IMG/VR virus record: IMGVR_UViG_3300035698_012504
Coordinates: 1 to 58,693 of that record
Reading direction: 5' to 3' (one strand)
From: a virus
DNA length: 58,693 nt
Shown: positions 16,691 through 23,380 of the stretch, piece after piece
Position numbering within the stretch: the stretch's first letter is position 1
Layout of the letters: the number at the start of each line of letters is the position of its first letter
Translations under genes and position numbers: made by a program
The notes under the pieces: generated by a model
What the model was told of the DNA's origin: nothing
Seen by the model: only the letters and a program-made list of their open reading frames with translations
The model's database searches: none

Positions 16691-17314
16691 ATGTCTTTCA
16701 AATCGAAAATATTAAACATAAAGTTATCCCCAATGTGTAACAGGTCTCTTGTTTATACTACGTACCCTGCTGGTGTTCCAGTACATTTCTCTGTTAAGTT
16801 TCACAAAACTAACCCAGGGATTCAATTTGACGTTGGGAATAAAAACAAGGTTATAGAATCAGGAGAGGCAGTTGTTCGGATGTTTAGAAATCTGAACAAC
16901 TGTCTGTTCTGTAACATATTCTTAGATCTTGAGACTATACAGACAGGTAAACATGACTATAAAAATAGGTTTTCTTCGGTAAGGAAGCACTATAAAGATA
17001 AAGTCTTTAGATTCATAAATGAAAGATTAGATTTACATAGTAGTAATAATGGAAAAAATAGTTATCATAATAGTATAGGTGTATCGGGATGGAAAATCCA
17101 TGGGCTGGAGGATGACCTACTTTTTTATTTCGTTCAAAGAAACTTTTTCAATAAGATAACTGCAACAAATATAATAAGAACTGCAGGATTACAGTTCTCC
17201 ACGGCTAGAGGATTGAAATCTTTAGAAAATTATAAAGATGACTCTGAAAACTTCTTTAGAAAAGTTAATGAAAGTGATAATATGCAATTTCTTAATGAGG
17301 CTTTCAAAGAATAG
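16691..17314 (+). CDS. hypothetical protein
   Basis: 207-aa ORF. Confidence 0.45.
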   Translation: MSFKSKILNIKLSPMCNRSLVYTTYPAGVPVHFSVKFHKTNPGIQFDVGNKNKVIESGEAVVRMFRNLNNCLFCNIFLDLETIQTGKHDYKNRFSSVRKHYKDKVFRFINERLDLHSSNNGKNSYHNSIGVSGWKIHGLEDDLLFYFVQRNFFNKITATNIIRTAGLQFSTARGLKSLENYKDDSENFFRKVNESDNMQFLNEAFKE

Positions 17315-17323
17315 GAGAATATA

Positions 17324-18589
17324 ATGGCAGAAGAACCACTAAATCACCACATATCACCAAACATGGCGCATCACTATTATATTAATAATGTATTTAGTGC
17401 TTTTATACGTGGGATCGCAGATTATTTTAAAACAGAATGGTTTGATGGTAGAAATAAAGATATTGTAATATCTACATATGAAAAAGCAGTAGAACATTTT
17501 AGAAACCGTCAGAACTTTGGAGGAGAGAAATTTTCTCCCAAATATCCATTTATAACATTCAATCCAGAGATTGACTTCGAGCCAGATGACCCTATGGGGA
17601 AATTCTTTCACAATTATCCAATATACAAAGGTTATTCTTCACAAATAGCTGCTAATTTATATAGTCCTTATATTTTTGAAGATGATAATGTGACTATTTC
17701 TGCAGTTATGAATAGATATAAAGGAAACTTTGAAATGATATTGTGGGCTAGTTCTGTATATGAGCTAATAGATTTTAAGGCGTATACATATCAGTTTTTT
17801 GGTGGTATGAATCGCCCAATATATCCTGCTATAATCGAATCATACCTTACTCTACCAGATGAATTTATATATTATACATATGATAACCCATATACAGCAG
17901 AAAAATACAATCTAGATTGGGAAAAATCAACTGGAGAAATAAATCTATTTAAAAACATCAACCAGAACAAGATGGTGTTTCCCTTTGTTCTGAGACCTTG
18001 GATTAAACTAACTGGTGCCAGCGATGGTTCAGAAAAGTATGGTGGTTCTGGAGATGAAATCGGAGATCATAGATTAGTTATTAATATGGAATGGGAAGTA
18101 ACATTACCGACCCATATGATAATGAGAGCAAGGAAGTTTCCAGATAGGTGTCATAAATTTCAGATGGATATACAAGTATCATCAAGATATATTCCACTAG
18201 CAAATGATTCAAGTACCCAGTATCCTGTAGCAGATGAAGTGACCGTTGTTTATGATGACATGATTGATTCGACTGCATCAGCTGAAGAAGCAATGGTATC
18301 AGTTGACCTAATTTATCACGATGCATATCAGTATGTTTGGACACAAGAGGATTACGATCTAGCAAATTCAACTACAGTGGCCGACAAGGATAAAAAGATC
18401 TCTTTAGATATTCCGAGAGAACCAACGGACTGTGTGTATCTAAAAGTGTATGGTAAGTATGGGGAGCTAGTTCGAGACTTCTATTGGAATGTGGTATCAC
18501 AAAACCAATTAGAATTGGTAGCATTTAATTTAAATTCATTAGAAGTAGATGATATATTAATGATTGTATATTATACAGAAAATGATTAG
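17324..18589 (+). CDS. hypothetical protein
   Basis: 421-aa ORF with an AGGAGAATATA Shine-Dalgarno sequence. Confidence 0.45.
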   Translation: MAEEPLNHHISPNMAHHYYINNVFSAFIRGIADYFKTEWFDGRNKDIVISTYEKAVEHFRNRQNFGGEKFSPKYPFITFNPEIDFEPDDPMGKFFHNYPIYKGYSSQIAANLYSPYIFEDDNVTISAVMNRYKGNFEMILWASSVYELIDFKAYTYQFFGGMNRPIYPAIIESYLTLPDEFIYYTYDNPYTAEKYNLDWEKSTGEINLFKNINQNKMVFPFVLRPWIKLTGASDGSEKYGGSGDEIGDHRLVINMEWEVTLPTHMIMRARKFPDRCHKFQMDIQVSSRYIPLANDSSTQYPVADEVTVVYDDMIDSTASAEEAMVSVDLIYHDAYQYVWTQEDYDLANSTTVADKDKKISLDIPREPTDCVYLKVYGKYGELVRDFYWNVVSQNQLELVAFNLNSLEVDDILMIVYYTEND

Positions 18590-18610
18590 GAGAGATTTGG
18601 AGAATAAATA

Positions 18611-19177
18611 ATGTCTAAAAAACTTTCATATGAATATGTAAAGCAATATTTTGAAGAAAATAGTTGCGAATTATTAGAAAGGGAATATGATAATTGTATG
18701 ATTAAAATGAAATATAAATGTTCTTGTGGAAGAATAAGTAAAATAAGTTTTAATAATTTTAAAAGTAAACATAGATGTAGTGATTGTGGTGGGAATGAAA
18801 AACATTCTTATGAATATATAAAACAATATTTTAAAGATAATAATTGTGAATTATTAGAAAAAGAATATATTAATAATAAAACTAACATGAAATATAAATG
18901 TGAATGTGAAATATTACTAGGATATTCTAGAAAAGATATTTTAGAGTATCTTAAGAAGGATCCAAATTTTGATAACTGGGTAAAGAATTCATCCAGCTGG
19001 CACATAGATCATATTATTCCAATAAAAGCATTTGTAGAAAATGAAATAACTAATCCGAAAATAATAAACGCTTTAGATAATTTAAGAATTATACACTGGA
19101 AAGAAAATTTACAAAAAGGTGCTACATTTAATAAGAATGAACTTCAAAGTTATGTGCAATCGAAAGGTATATTATGA
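18611..19177 (+). CDS. HNH homing endonuclease with a duplicated N-terminal Cys4 zinc module
   Basis: Two copies of YEYVKQYF..NCELLE.EY...MKYKC.CG...HRC..CG, then SSWHIDHIIPIKAF...LDNLRIIHWKEN (HNH). Confidence 0.8.
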   Translation: MSKKLSYEYVKQYFEENSCELLEREYDNCMIKMKYKCSCGRISKISFNNFKSKHRCSDCGGNEKHSYEYIKQYFKDNNCELLEKEYINNKTNMKYKCECEILLGYSRKDILEYLKKDPNFDNWVKNSSSWHIDHIIPIKAFVENEITNPKIINALDNLRIIHWKENLQKGATFNKNELQSYVQSKGIL

Positions 19178-19704
19178 TAAAATATGTCAAAGGTGATTTG
19201 TTCCTAACAGACTGCAATTCTATTTGCCATGGCGTGTCGTGCGCTGGTGTGATGGGAGTCGGGGTTGCTAAGAGAATGAAAGAAAGATACCCTGCTAATT
19301 TCAAATACTATCATAACCAATATAAATTTAAAAAATTGAAACCAGGTGAAGTATATATCTTTGCAGGATATCCTAGAAAAATTATAAATCTTACAACTCA
19401 AAGTCAATATGGTAGAAAGAGAATTAAGTATGCGACATTGGAAAATATTAAATCTTGTTTTTTGAAACTTAAATTATTACTACCAGAATATAATAAGGTG
19501 ATAGTTAAAAAGGGAAGCGGACCCATACAAAGTATTGCTCTTCCTAGAATAGGATCTGGATATGGCGGACTTAATTGGAAAGATGTTAAAAATCTTATAG
19601 ATACTCATCTCTCTGATACAGTACCCATAGTAGTATTTGAAGATTTTAAATATGGAATGAAGGCAGAAGAAGAAAATGAATTTCTGTCAAAGGAGCTGAA
19701 TTAA
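19174..19704 (+). CDS. macro-domain protein, TARG1/OARD1/DarG-like (ADP-ribose glycohydrolase)
   Basis: [37 protein letters not shown] matches TARG1 YVKGDLF...[48 protein letters not shown] matches TARG1 LSMPRIGCGLDRLQWENV. Confidence 0.65.
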   Translation: [176 protein letters not shown]

Positions 19705-19708
19705 AAAA

Positions 19709-20176
19709 ATGGGTGCAAGTAAAAGAATAGTTCAGATTTTAGAGGAAGCATTTAAGGCAGCAGTAGTTGATGCTATTGTATGCGATGAGACTGAAACCAA
19801 AGGTAGTTCTTGGATAAGGATCACCCTAAAAGATAGTGGGCCTTTCTTTATATTATGTAGAGCACTAGGCATTAATGATAACATGCGATCTAAAAAGGGT
19901 GGAATTCTTCATATTTATGTATCTCATAATCCGTGTCAAGAACAAAATAGAGCATATGCAAAAGCTTTTACCAAGATTTTAAATGATCATGATATTACTG
20001 CAACTGTAGAAGATCCAGAATCTGGATCAATTCCAGAAGAAGTAAAGAAGCAGTTAAAGAAAAAAATACAAGAGGCTCAGGAAATACATAAGAGACTCGG
20101 AAAAATAAAAGACGAGGACCTGGAAGATTTTCAAGAGGACGAGTGTTATGAAGATACAGAAGAGGACGATGAATAG
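19709..20176 (+). CDS. regA: RegA-like translational repressor homolog with an extra N-terminal segment and an acidic C-terminal tail (tentative)
   Basis: IRITLKDSGPFF..LGI aligns with T4 RegA IEITLKKPEDFL..MGI. SKKGGILHIYVSH aligns with QKKGLYYIVHFKE. T4 RegA sequence is quoted from memory. Confidence 0.4.
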   Translation: MGASKRIVQILEEAFKAAVVDAIVCDETETKGSSWIRITLKDSGPFFILCRALGINDNMRSKKGGILHIYVSHNPCQEQNRAYAKAFTKILNDHDITATVEDPESGSIPEEVKKQLKKKIQEAQEIHKRLGKIKDEDLEDFQEDECYEDTEEDDE

Positions 20177-20185
20177 AAAGGACGA

Positions 20186-20374
20186 ATGATGGTTACTCAA
20201 AGTGTACAAGAAATTCTTGATGCGATGGAGAAAGTCAAAGACGTAGATTTTAGACCATTAGGTCCGCCACTTGACGCAGAGGAACGTAGGAAGCGTGTAC
20301 TGGATCTATGTGAGAGATGGAAAGATGCGCCATATATTGGTGAAGATGAATTTTTAAAGTTGGAAGGAAGATAA
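20186..20374 (+). CDS. hypothetical small acidic protein
   Basis: 62-aa ORF, coupled by TAATG to the next gene. Confidence 0.4.
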   Translation: MMVTQSVQEILDAMEKVKDVDFRPLGPPLDAEERRKRVLDLCERWKDAPYIGEDEFLKLEGR

Positions 20375-20727
20375 TGAACAGGGAAGAACTCAATAAAATA
20401 TTTGAGGAGACAGTACAAGAATGCCGGGAAATTTTATTTTCTAAGAATATGGAATATAGTAGAGATTCGAATGCTCTTGAAAACTTTGATGTTACATCGG
20501 CTGCGGCTGGTATAACAGAACTTCAGGCTCTGTACGTTTTCCTCAGAAAGCATATAAATAGTATAGAAACATATATAAGAGAAGGTGAAACATATTCAGA
20601 TGAAACTATACAAGGTAGAGTGTACGATTGTATCAATTACCTAATTTTATTCAATGCACTTCTTAAAAGAGAAGAATTAAGAAATAAAACTGAGAAAGTA
20701 GAGAAGGATAAGATATTATTAGAATAA
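20374..20727 (+). CDS. all-alpha NTP pyrophosphohydrolase, MazG-like (tentative)
   Basis: Contains an EExxxExxE acidic cluster (FEETVQECRE) and a C-terminal D..IN.LILFNAL segment, in the usual MazG pattern. Confidence 0.35.
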   Translation: MNREELNKIFEETVQECREILFSKNMEYSRDSNALENFDVTSAAAGITELQALYVFLRKHINSIETYIREGETYSDETIQGRVYDCINYLILFNALLKREELRNKTEKVEKDKILLE

Positions 20728-20746
20728 ATAATATTAATTAAAAATT

Positions 20747-21434
20747 ATGGGTAAAAAATTAACTTATGAATATGTTAAACAATACTTTAAAGATAATAAT
20801 TGTGAATTGTTAGAAGATGAATATATTAATTCTAGGACTAAAATGAAATATAAGTGTTCATGTGGGAATACATCTGAGATTAGATTTAGTGATTTTAAAA
20901 ACGGTCATAGATGTAATAAATGTGGGACTAAAAGGACCCGTGATAAATTAAGTCATAGTTATAAATATATAAAGCAATTATTTAAAGATCAGGGGTGTGA
21001 ATTATTAGAAAAAGATTATGTTGATAATCATACTAATATGAAATATATATGTTCTTGCGGTAACTCTGCAGAAATAACTTTTAACAGATTTCAATATGGA
21101 CATAGATGTATGAGATGTGGAAATGATAAGATATCAGGTCATAATCATCATAATTGGAACCCTGATAGAAATGTTGTTAGGAAGACAAAAGAGATACACA
21201 ACTTAAGTGCGTCATATAAAAATAACTACAGAAAGAAACATAACATCTAAAGACGTGCATATAGATCATATAATTCCGGTAAAAGCATTTGTGGAAAATG
21301 GGATATTTGATTTAGATATAATCAATGATGATAAAAATTTACAGTTGCTTTCCAGTAGGGAAAATTTAAGTAAAAGTGGTAAATATAATCAGGAAGATCT
21401 TGTAATATTTTTAAAGGAAAGGGTATCGGTATAA
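20747..21434 (+). pseudogene. disrupted paralog of the zinc-finger HNH endonuclease family
   Basis: The 20747..21250 fragment carries the duplicated Zn modules and HNWNPDR. The 21207..21434 fragment is in another frame and carries VHIDHIIPVKAF...LSSRENL (HNH). The LGYSR linker found in the intact paralogs is missing. Confidence 0.6.
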
Positions 21435-22388
21435 ATGAGAGTTGAGAATACATTATTTGTTGAGAAGTATAGACCTAAATCATTAGATGAAATGATTCTT
21501 AGTGATGATTATAGAAAAATATTTGAAGAGTTTATAAATAAGAAAGAAATTCCAAATCTACTTTTATTTGGTCCGCCGGGCGGCGGAAAAACTACGATTG
21601 CTAGAATTTTAATTCATGAGATAATGCCAGATAATATTGACGTTCTATTTTTAAACGGGAGTGTCACCACTGGAGTGGACGTGCAGAGAGACCTTGTGGA
21701 AGAATTTCTTTCCGTTGCGAGTATAAGCGGATGCAATTATAAAATAGTATTTATAGATGAGGCTGAGATGCTCAGTATAAATGCACAAAAAGCATTGAAG
21801 AGTATCACGGAAGAATTTACGGCGTATGGACGTTTTATATTCACTACAAATGACCCATCAAAAATAATAGACCCGCTACATTCACGATTCCAAGCATTTC
21901 AATTCAATAGTTTGAATAAAGAGTTTGTAAAATATCATGTGTTTACTGTATTATCTGCAGAAGAAATTACATATGATGTAGAGGTAGTAGAAAAAACAAT
22001 AAACACATTTTATCCTGATGTTAGAAAAATTCTAGGGACAATACAATCTAGAATAGTTAATAAAGAATTAATTATAAATAAAGAAGATTTAAATTCCACA
22101 GAATTATTAATTGTAGAAAAAGTTAAAGTCATGGTAGATCGAATCTTGAATGGGAATAGTGCAAGTGAGTCAGCTATACAAAAAATAATTTCTGAAGAAG
22201 ATGTTGATTTCTTTAATTTGTATAGAGAGTTGTTTAAATCACCCGATATTCCTCCGTATATAAAAATTGTTGTAAATAAATATGCAATTTCTCATATGAA
22301 TGCTATGATATCAGAGATGAATTTTATGTCTTTTGTTTATGAAACTATGAAAATCGCGTCTCACGTAAAATCACTGAAAGGGAAGTAG
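21435..22388 (+). CDS. 44: sliding-clamp loader ATPase subunit (T4 gp44 / RFC small-subunit-like)
   Basis: LLLFGPPGGGKTT (Walker A), IVFIDEAEML (Walker B) and SRFQAFQF (sensor 1). Confidence 0.85.
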   Translation: MRVENTLFVEKYRPKSLDEMILSDDYRKIFEEFINKKEIPNLLLFGPPGGGKTTIARILIHEIMPDNIDVLFLNGSVTTGVDVQRDLVEEFLSVASISGCNYKIVFIDEAEMLSINAQKALKSITEEFTAYGRFIFTTNDPSKIIDPLHSRFQAFQFNSLNKEFVKYHVFTVLSAEEITYDVEVVEKTINTFYPDVRKILGTIQSRIVNKELIINKEDLNSTELLIVEKVKVMVDRILNGNSASESAIQKIISEEDVDFFNLYRELFKSPDIPPYIKIVVNKYAISHMNAMISEMNFMSFVYETMKIASHVKSLKGK

Positions 22389-23380
22389 TGGTATATAAGA
22401 ATCTGGAAAAGTTAAGGTCTTTTTTAGACAAGAAGACCGGCTTAGCATATTTTAATGGATCGCATAGTGAATTAATTTGTAGATGTCCTTCTTGCGAACC
22501 AGATTCTAAAAGAAGACATGGACATTTATATATTAGTACACACGAACCACTTTTTAACTGTTTTAAATGTAATTATAAGGGGCTTGTAACCAAATTATTA
22601 AGACTTTTGGACGAAAATCCAGAAGATTACCTATATTTAGACAAAATTAAGATAAAAAATAGTGAATTTTCATTAAATCGCCCCATTTTTGAAGTAAAAA
22701 CTTATGATATTCCAGAAGACACTAAGCTATCTAAAATAAAACGGGCGTATTTAAAGACGAGATTAGGGGTTGATTTAGATGAGGCGAAGGTGCCGAATCT
22801 AATAATTGATCTTGAGCGGTTCATAAACATTAACAATCTTAGTATACCTGATTCGGTATTGGGACTATATCCATACTTATGTGAGAACTTTATTGGATTC
22901 TTATGCAATAGAGGTACACTAATAATATTAAGAAATGTAGACTGTAATGCTAAAATATCCCATTTTCGGTTAAAAATAGGAGAAATTGGTATTTTTAGTG
23001 ACTTTTATGGGTTAAAAATAGGACCAAGGCGACCAAATCTTAATAAAATCGTACTTTGTGAAGGAATCTTTGATGTTTTATCGTCGAAGTCAAGGACTGA
23101 ACTTGATAATATACTTGGTGGTACTCATTTCCTTTCTGCGGTATTAGGAAGACATTATTATAATACCTTCACATCTATTTTAGATTATTGCAAATTAACG
23201 ATGGCGGACGTAGTTATTCTTGGGGATAATGATGTCCCAATAAAAGAATACGATTTTATAAGAAATCATCCATCTGTAGTAGGATTTAATCTATATATAA
23301 ATAAAATTGGTCATGATTTTGCAACTAAAAATATAGAACCATTGAAAGTAGTTACTGGAAAACCAAATAGGAGAGTGTAA
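22388..23380 (+). CDS. DNA primase-like protein (N-terminal zinc ribbon plus TOPRIM; T4 gp61-like)
   Basis: CRCPSCEP...CFKCNYKG, VLCEGIFDVLS (TOPRIM Glu) and ILGDNDVP (DxD). GTG start overlapping the upstream TAG. Confidence 0.5.
   Translation: MVYKNLEKLRSFLDKKTGLAYFNGSHSELICRCPSCEPDSKRRHGHLYISTHEPLFNCFKCNYKGLVTKLLRLLDENPEDYLYLDKIKIKNSEFSLNRPIFEVKTYDIPEDTKLSKIKRAYLKTRLGVDLDEAKVPNLIIDLERFININNLSIPDSVLGLYPYLCENFIGFLCNRGTLIILRNVDCNAKISHFRLKIGEIGIFSDFYGLKIGPRRPNLNKIVLCEGIFDVLSSKSRTELDNILGGTHFLSAVLGRHYYNTFTSILDYCKLTMADVVILGDNDVPIKEYDFIRNHPSVVGFNLYINKIGHDFATKNIEPLKVVTGKPNRRV

What the first reader, a model, noticed from the sequence alone, without database searches (positions are those of the whole stretch)
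19174..19704. TARG1/DarG-like macro domain, a candidate counter-defence against ADP-ribosylation
The protein aligns end to end with TARG1/OARD1: KGDLF...C(H/I)..S.D..MG.G(I/V)A at the N-terminus and (L/I)..PRIG.G...L.W..V..(L/M)I at the C-terminus. It is 176 aa, the size of a stand-alone macro domain. TARG1 and DarG-type macro domains remove ADP-ribose from protein Glu and from thymidine in ssDNA, which is the DarT modification. A phage copy is therefore a plausible anti-DarTG counter-defence factor, or a general one against host ADP-ribosylating toxins. It sits in a cassette with a RegA-like and a MazG-like gene, bracketed by two paralogous HNH genes.
Basis: partly seen in the sequence, partly recalled or inferred. 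Interest (0 to 1): 0.6.

Follow-up and report, generated by a model that had tools for sequence, protein, structure and literature searches.

The report
Phage Tk.4/AdfM-type macrodomain, unusual active site
This gene in an uncultured phage encodes a small ADP-ribose-removing enzyme of a type that phages T4 and PhiKZ are already known to use against the bacterial DarTG2 defence, so it is a new member of a known kind, though one normally invariant active-site residue is changed and leaves its activity uncertain.

Summary

Gln76 is not a defect. About 80% of 260 relatives carry Gln there. They include T4 Tk.4 (AdfM), whose knockout sensitises T4 to DarTG2. Streptomyces SCO6735 also has Gln there and cleaves ADP-ribosyl-thymidine.

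What stands out is Ser22 where 256 of 260 relatives have Asn; no other has Ser. The same change (N27S) nearly kills SCO6735 on DNA. Val29 and Thr74 are also unique to the query, and Tyr130 is rare. Activity may be reduced, compensated or redirected.

The "RegA-like" and "MazG-like" neighbour labels are unsupported. The two HNH genes are paralogous. The left one is a later insertion, because it is absent from a syntenic relative.

Verdict: new member of a known kind, modest interest.

The parts
19174..19704 (+). Macrodomain gene, 176 aa. Stand-alone ALC1-like-class macrodomain of the Tk.4/AdfM 'HGxN...TQ' clade.
19237..19239 (+). Codon 22, TCG = Ser. This is the column of the near-invariant Asn (DarG N22, SCO6735 N27, PhiKZ AdfM N23).
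   Evidence: Asn in 256 of 260 family representatives, and Ser only in the query. All 8 IMG/VR relatives have Asn. The TCG codon is identical in 5 independent metagenome contigs. TCG differs from AAY (Asn) at both non-synonymous positions, read directly from the sequence.
19399..19401 (+). Codon 76, CAA = Gln. This is the column of the catalytic Lys of TARG1 (K84) and DarG (K80), and of Gln85 in SCO6735.
   Evidence: HMMER alignments to 5m3i, 5m31 and 4j5r. MAFFT column: Gln in 102 and Lys in 47 of 150 sequences; in the larger set, 210 Gln and 49 Lys of 260. The SCO6735 equivalence is stated in PMC9411070.
19402..19428 (+). Residues 77-85 (SQYGRKRIK). The loop after Gln76 is 4 residues longer than in DarG, TARG1 and T4 Tk.4, and it is basic.
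   Evidence: Loop length is 12 against 8 in the references. It is comparable to the longer Lys-bearing 'mobile loop' of SCO6735 and BT1257. The closest homologue P0002 shares it.
19552..19569 (+). Residues 127-132 (GSGYGG), the phosphate-binding loop. Gly131 sits at the TARG1 Asp125 column. Tyr130 is rare in the family.
   Evidence: Alignment. At position 130 the Gln clade has Leu in 74% and Tyr in 4%.
19709..20176 (+). Conserved downstream neighbour, 155 aa, with an N-terminal domain of about 100 aa and an acidic tail. Function unknown; any functional link to the macrodomain is unproven.
   Evidence: The adjacency is conserved in the related contig L018 (43% identity). Only 2 relatives exist in the 5.8-billion-protein index. 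There is no family hit. The AF2 model is unusable at pLDDT 57. It is not RegA.
18611..19177 (+). HNH endonuclease gene (188 aa). Its stop codon overlaps the macro start codon (ATGA). It is a lineage-specific insertion and not part of the macro function.
   Evidence: PHROG HNH families. It is absent between the 421-aa-like gene and the macro gene in the syntenic relative L018. The window holds 4 paralogous copies.
20747..21434 (+). Second, paralogous HNH gene, split over two frames (20747..21250 and 21207..21434).
   Evidence: The same split is called in all metagenome copies.

Best explanation
The ORF encodes a stand-alone macrodomain of the TARG1/DarG/SCO6735 (ALC1-like) class. More precisely, it belongs to the large 'His-Gly-x-Asn ... 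Thr-Gln' clade whose phage prototype is T4 Tk.4 (AdfM).

Its most likely job is that of an orphan-antitoxin-like ADP-ribosylglycohydrolase. It would be made alongside the phage replication genes and would strip ADP-ribose from thymine N3 in phage single-stranded DNA. That modification is placed by a host DarT2-type toxin, so removing it would let replication proceed.

Catalysis cannot follow the TARG1 route of a Lys84 Schiff base assisted by Asp125, because both residues are missing. By analogy with SCO6735, Gln76 would hold the distal ribose while a backbone-positioned water does the chemistry.

Shown here: the fold, the class, the clade, the residue states, and the conserved genomic position.

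Inferred: the substrate, the biological role and the chemistry.

One caveat is built into this explanation. The Asn that normally locks the Gln in place is Ser here, so activity may be weaker or may depend on compensating changes (Val29, Thr74, Tyr130).
For: Fold and class:
- Pfam Macro.
- PDB phmmer ranks the DarG macrodomains first.
- The Gln-clade profile matches DarG at about 1e-36, TARG1 at 1e-28, and BT1257 and SCO6735 at 1e-26 and 1e-24.
- AF2 pLDDT is 96.

Clade:
- Gln sits at the Lys column in 102 of 150 and in 210 of 260 relatives. It travels with His19, and the proteins are mostly stand-alone and about 155 aa long.
- T4 Tk.4 reads HGCN...TQ and aligns to the query at E 9e-16.

Function of relatives:
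- tk.4 is the single T4 hit on a DarTG2 host, and a clean knockout is sensitised (10.1101/2025.11.20.689424).
- PhiKZ AdfM removes T-ADPr in vitro and rescues DarT2 toxicity (PMC13309987).
- SCO6735 carries Gln85 and cleaves DarT-made dT-ADPr faster than DarG or TARG1. Its Q85A mutant is dead (PMC9411070).

Not a decaying gene:
- 29 of 32 strongly conserved clade columns are kept.
- The gene is syntenic in a relative only 41% identical.
- It lies two to three kb upstream of the clamp loader and primase genes.
Against: - Ser22 replaces an Asn present in 256 of 260 relatives. SCO6735 N27S is almost inactive on DNA. PhiKZ AdfM N23A has reduced activity. DarG Asn mutants lose turnover.
- Val29 replaces the Ala, Ser or Lys seen in the family. 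The equivalent SCO6735 mutant K34E is nearly dead on DNA.
- No biochemical work on any Tk.4-type Gln enzyme from a phage was found. The T4 evidence is genetic only.
- The host is unknown, and so is whether it carries DarTG2.
- Identity to the validated proteins is low, at 24-30%.
Confidence: 0.55

Rival explanations
1. Redirected specificity. The remodelled pocket (Ser22, Val29, Thr74, Tyr130 together with Gln76) has moved the enzyme away from thymidine-ADPr on DNA to another ADP-ribose conjugate. Candidates are uracil-ADPr or phosphate-linked ADPr on RNA, Glu/Asp-linked protein ADPr, or an ADPr-derived immune signal. It would then counter a different host ADP-ribosylating defence, or tune the phage's own ADP-ribosyltransferases.
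For: - The unusual residues all fall in sequence segments that line the active site in relatives: the Asn column, the GVMG-x-G loop, two residues before Gln76, and the phosphate loop.
- The rest of the protein is conserved at 29 of 32 strongly conserved columns, which fits selection and not decay.
- Enzymes of this class are multi-substrate. TARG1, DarG and SCO6735 also cleave U-ADPr on RNA. TARG1 and SCO6735 act on Glu/Asp-ADPr proteins.
- Most SCO6735 active-site mutants keep about half their activity on the protein substrate (N27S is not reported individually), while N27S nearly loses activity on DNA.
Against: - No ADP-ribosyltransferase, NADAR or DarT family was found among 60 further ORFs in the window. 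The window is only part of the genome, and 7 low-ranked families were not listed.
- No precedent was found for a Ser+Gln enzyme.
- Spatial clustering of the odd residues could not be measured, because no model coordinates were available.
Confidence: 0.2
2. Catalytically weak or dead macrodomain that works, if at all, by binding. It could sequester ADP-ribosylated DNA ends or ADP-ribose, or it could inhibit the DarT toxin directly, as inactive DarG, TARG1 and SCO6735 mutants can. Alternatively it is a recently disabled allele, like the inactive AdfA, AdfB and RB69 AdfN alleles seen in other phages.
For: - SCO6735 N27S is almost inactive.
- SCO6735 Q85A still inhibits DarT by interaction, more strongly than DarG K80A or TARG1 K84A.
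- Phages commonly carry inactive alleles of anti-DarT factors.
- Only one phage population carries Ser22. The five contigs are essentially identical, and the nearest relative has Asn.
Against: - The ORF is intact and 29 of 32 conserved columns are kept.
- TCG is at least two substitutions away from an Asn codon, so this is not a single fresh hit (sequence).
- The extra unique residues near the pocket look like co-adaptation.
- The protein has no DarG-like C-terminal DarT-binding domain.
Confidence: 0.15
3. Housekeeping 'phosphatase', as many databases annotate it. In this reading it is an ADP-ribose-1''-phosphate phosphatase or O-acetyl-ADP-ribose deacetylase (Poa1p-like) that cleans up NAD-derived metabolites, with no role in defence.
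For: - phrog_335 and many GenBank entries call homologues 'phosphatase' or 'A1pp'.
Against: - The annotation is inherited from the old A1pp domain name and not from experiments.
- The only phage homologue with a phenotype (T4 Tk.4) is dispensable except on a DarTG2 host.
- DarG, SCO6735 and TARG1 are closer than Poa1p in both sequence and structure.
Confidence: 0.05

Closest known systems
T4 Tk.4 = AdfM (anti-DarT factor macrodomain), Tevenvirinae
   Same: Phage-encoded, stand-alone macrodomain of about 155-176 aa. It has the same 'HGx(N)...NLxTQ...PRIGxGxG..W' signature, with Gln at the catalytic-Lys column. BLASTP gives E 9e-16. The query matches phrog_335, the PHROG whose 'phosphatase' label GenBank also gives to Tk.4.
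   Different: Identity is only 30%. The query has Ser22 where Tk.4 has Asn. Its loop after Gln76 is 4 residues longer and basic. It has an insertion of about 10 residues before the PRIG strand and a C-terminal helix (residues 165-175). The genomic neighbourhood differs: T4 has vs/tk, and here the gene lies between unknown genes and the clamp loader. The phage is only distantly related to T4 (clamp loader 36% identity or less over the full length).
PhiKZ gp104 = AdfM (chimallivirus DarG2-like antitoxin)
   Same: A phage stand-alone macrodomain of the same class. It has been shown biochemically to remove DarT2-made ADP-ribose from DNA and to protect against DarTG2.
   Different: It belongs to the Lys clade (N23 and K78, 'FPTKDNW', 'PPLGCANGG'). 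Identity to the query is 24%. It is imported into the phage nucleus.
SCO6735 (Streptomyces coelicolor; PDB 5E3B) and BT1257 (2FG1/2AFC)
   Different: The query has Ser at the Asn27 column, which is the state of the near-dead N27S mutant. It has Val at the Lys34 column. Sequence similarity is lower than to DarG. SCO6735 is bacterial and DNA-damage-inducible, not a phage protein.
DarG (DarTG2 antitoxin) macrodomain, PDB 5M31/5M3E/5M3I/7OMU
   Different: There is no catalytic Lys80 (Gln76) and no Asn22 (Ser22). There is no C-terminal DarT-binding domain: only positions 1-148 of 338 in the model are matched, and the score of 100 bits is below the 250-bit cutoff. There is no adjacent darT gene.
Human TARG1/OARD1
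   Same: Same class and size. His and Ser occupy the 'H..S' positions (HCIS against HGVS). PRIG.G...L.W is shared. E is 3e-6 with a single sequence and 1e-28 with the profile.

Membership tests
Macro domain superfamily (Pfam PF01661) | Sequence match above the Pfam gathering threshold, plus the macro alpha/beta/alpha fold | tested here: met
ALC1-like class (TARG1 / DarG / SCO6735 / Poa1p) | Closer in sequence and structure to TARG1, DarG, SCO6735 and Poa1p than to the MacroD, macroH2A, PARG or viral Mac1 classes | tested here: met
TARG1/OARD1 | Catalytic Lys84 | tested here: not met
   Gln76 sits at this column in HMMER and MAFFT alignments.
TARG1/OARD1 | Asp125 of the Lys/Asp dyad | tested here: not met
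   Gly131 sits at this column.
DarG antitoxin (DarTG2) | Catalytic Lys80 in the macrodomain | tested here: not met
   Gln76.
DarG antitoxin (DarTG2) | Active-site Asn22 | tested here: not met
   Ser22.
DarG antitoxin (DarTG2) | C-terminal DarT-binding domain (full-length protein of about 330-340 aa) | tested here: not met
   The protein is 176 aa. NCBIfam NF048014 is matched only at positions 1-148 of 338, with 100 bits against a 250-bit cutoff. PADLOC DarG is matched only at positions 1-146 of 329.
DarG antitoxin (DarTG2) | Encoded next to a darT toxin gene | tested here: not met
   The neighbours are an HNH gene and a 155-aa gene of unknown function. No DarT/DUF4433 or PADLOC hit was found in flanking ORFs or elsewhere in the window.
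SCO6735-type Gln macrodomain hydrolases | Gln at the TARG1-K84 / DarG-K80 position (Gln85) | tested here: met
   Gln76. The equivalence of Gln85 to K84 and K80 is stated in PMC9411070. No residue-level alignment of the query to 5E3B itself was obtained.
SCO6735-type Gln macrodomain hydrolases | Asn27, which locks Gln85 (the N27S mutant is nearly inactive on DNA) | tested here: not met
   Ser22 sits at the Asn column.
SCO6735-type Gln macrodomain hydrolases | Mobile loop after the Gln that is about 5 residues longer and bears Lys; also Lys34 | tested here: inconclusive
   The loop is 4 residues longer than in DarG and TARG1 and is basic (GRKRIK). The Lys34-equivalent column holds Val29. Sequence similarity to 5E3B is weaker than to DarG.
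AdfM (phage anti-DarT factor, macrodomain), T4 Tk.4 type | Phage-encoded stand-alone macrodomain homologous to Tk.4, with the HGxN...TQ signature | tested here: inconclusive
   Homology holds (E 9e-16; phrog_335 at 2.8e-38). His19 and Gln76 are present. The Asn of HGxN is Ser.
AdfM (phage anti-DarT factor, macrodomain), T4 Tk.4 type | Protects the phage against DarTG2 and removes T-ADPr from DNA | not testable with these tools
   This needs plaque assays or enzymology. The evidence exists only for T4 Tk.4 (genetic) and PhiKZ gp104 (biochemical).
RegA translational repressor (neighbour 19709..20176) | Homology to T4 RegA / Pfam Translat_reg | tested here: not met
   BLASTP against T4 RegA gives E 0.62. 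There is no Pfam hit at E 0.1 or better.
MazG-like NTP pyrophosphohydrolase (neighbour 20374..20727) | Match to MazG-family models or structures | tested here: not met
   No Pfam, NCBIfam or PDB hit. The only match is phrog_6802, of unknown function. Remote fold-level similarity was not tested.

The most novel reading that the evidence does not exclude
Ser22 with Gln76 is the only such pair among 260 family representatives. Val29 and Thr74 are also family-unique, and Tyr130 is rare. In the most novel reading these are not damage. They would form a co-adapted, remodelled active site that gives this phage macrodomain a new activity. One possibility is hydrolysis or sequestration of a different ADP-ribose conjugate, such as RNA-base ADPr, protein ADPr or an ADPr-derived immune signal. 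Another is a purely binding-based anti-toxin mode. Either would make it a functionally new branch of the Tk.4/AdfM clade.
Probability: 0.2. Interest if true: 0.55.

Novelty: new member of a known kind. Interest (0 to 1): 0.3.

Why it matters
Phage macrodomains that undo DarT2 ADP-ribosylation of DNA (AdfM) were described only in 2025-2026. The descriptions come from T4 (genetics) and from PhiKZ and related nucleus-forming phages (biochemistry). This gene extends the Tk.4-type branch to a very divergent, AT-rich, uncultured phage lineage. It also shows that the Gln-type active site dominates this family, at about 80% of the sampled representatives, not the textbook Lys.

The practical value is as a natural experiment. 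The protein combines the SCO6735-type Gln with the TARG1-type Ser, a pairing that was nearly dead when engineered into SCO6735. If the wild-type protein is active, it would show how the Gln mechanism can do without the Asn lock. If it is inactive, it adds to the pattern of phages carrying disabled anti-DarT alleles.

It also warns against using 'catalytic Lys present or absent' as a pass/fail test for this class.

Tried and rejected
- Megablast of 17000-23000 against 50,697 phage genomes found no match, so there is no close cultured relative.
- The word-indexed homologue search with the single protein returned only the protein itself. The exhaustive HMMER scan and a profile search were needed.
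- I tried to get a residue-level alignment to SCO6735 (5E3B) by using P0019 as a bridge query. 5E3B ranked fourth and was not printed. The SCO6735 mapping therefore rests on the paper's stated equivalences plus my alignments to DarG and TARG1.
- One search was a mistake.
- The first MAFFT L-INS-i run timed out and was rerun with --auto.
- The RegA-like and MazG-like labels were tested and rejected. A weak CdtA ADP-ribosyltransferase hit for the 155-aa neighbour (E 0.5) is treated as noise.
- The AF2 model of the conserved 155-aa neighbour reached only pLDDT 57 from a 2-sequence alignment, so it was not fold-searched.
- The promoter and terminator scan of 17000-22500 found no more sites than shuffled sequence gives (29 against 33.6 expected; 1 against 1.7). 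It is uninformative about transcription units.
- Model coordinates are not exposed, so the Ser22-Gln76 geometry could not be measured.
- I considered a mobile cassette delivered by the flanking HNH genes and rejected it. The macro gene and its neighbours are syntenic in a relative that lacks the left HNH.
- I considered the phage regulating its own ADP-ribosyltransferases. No ART was found in the window, but the window is partial.
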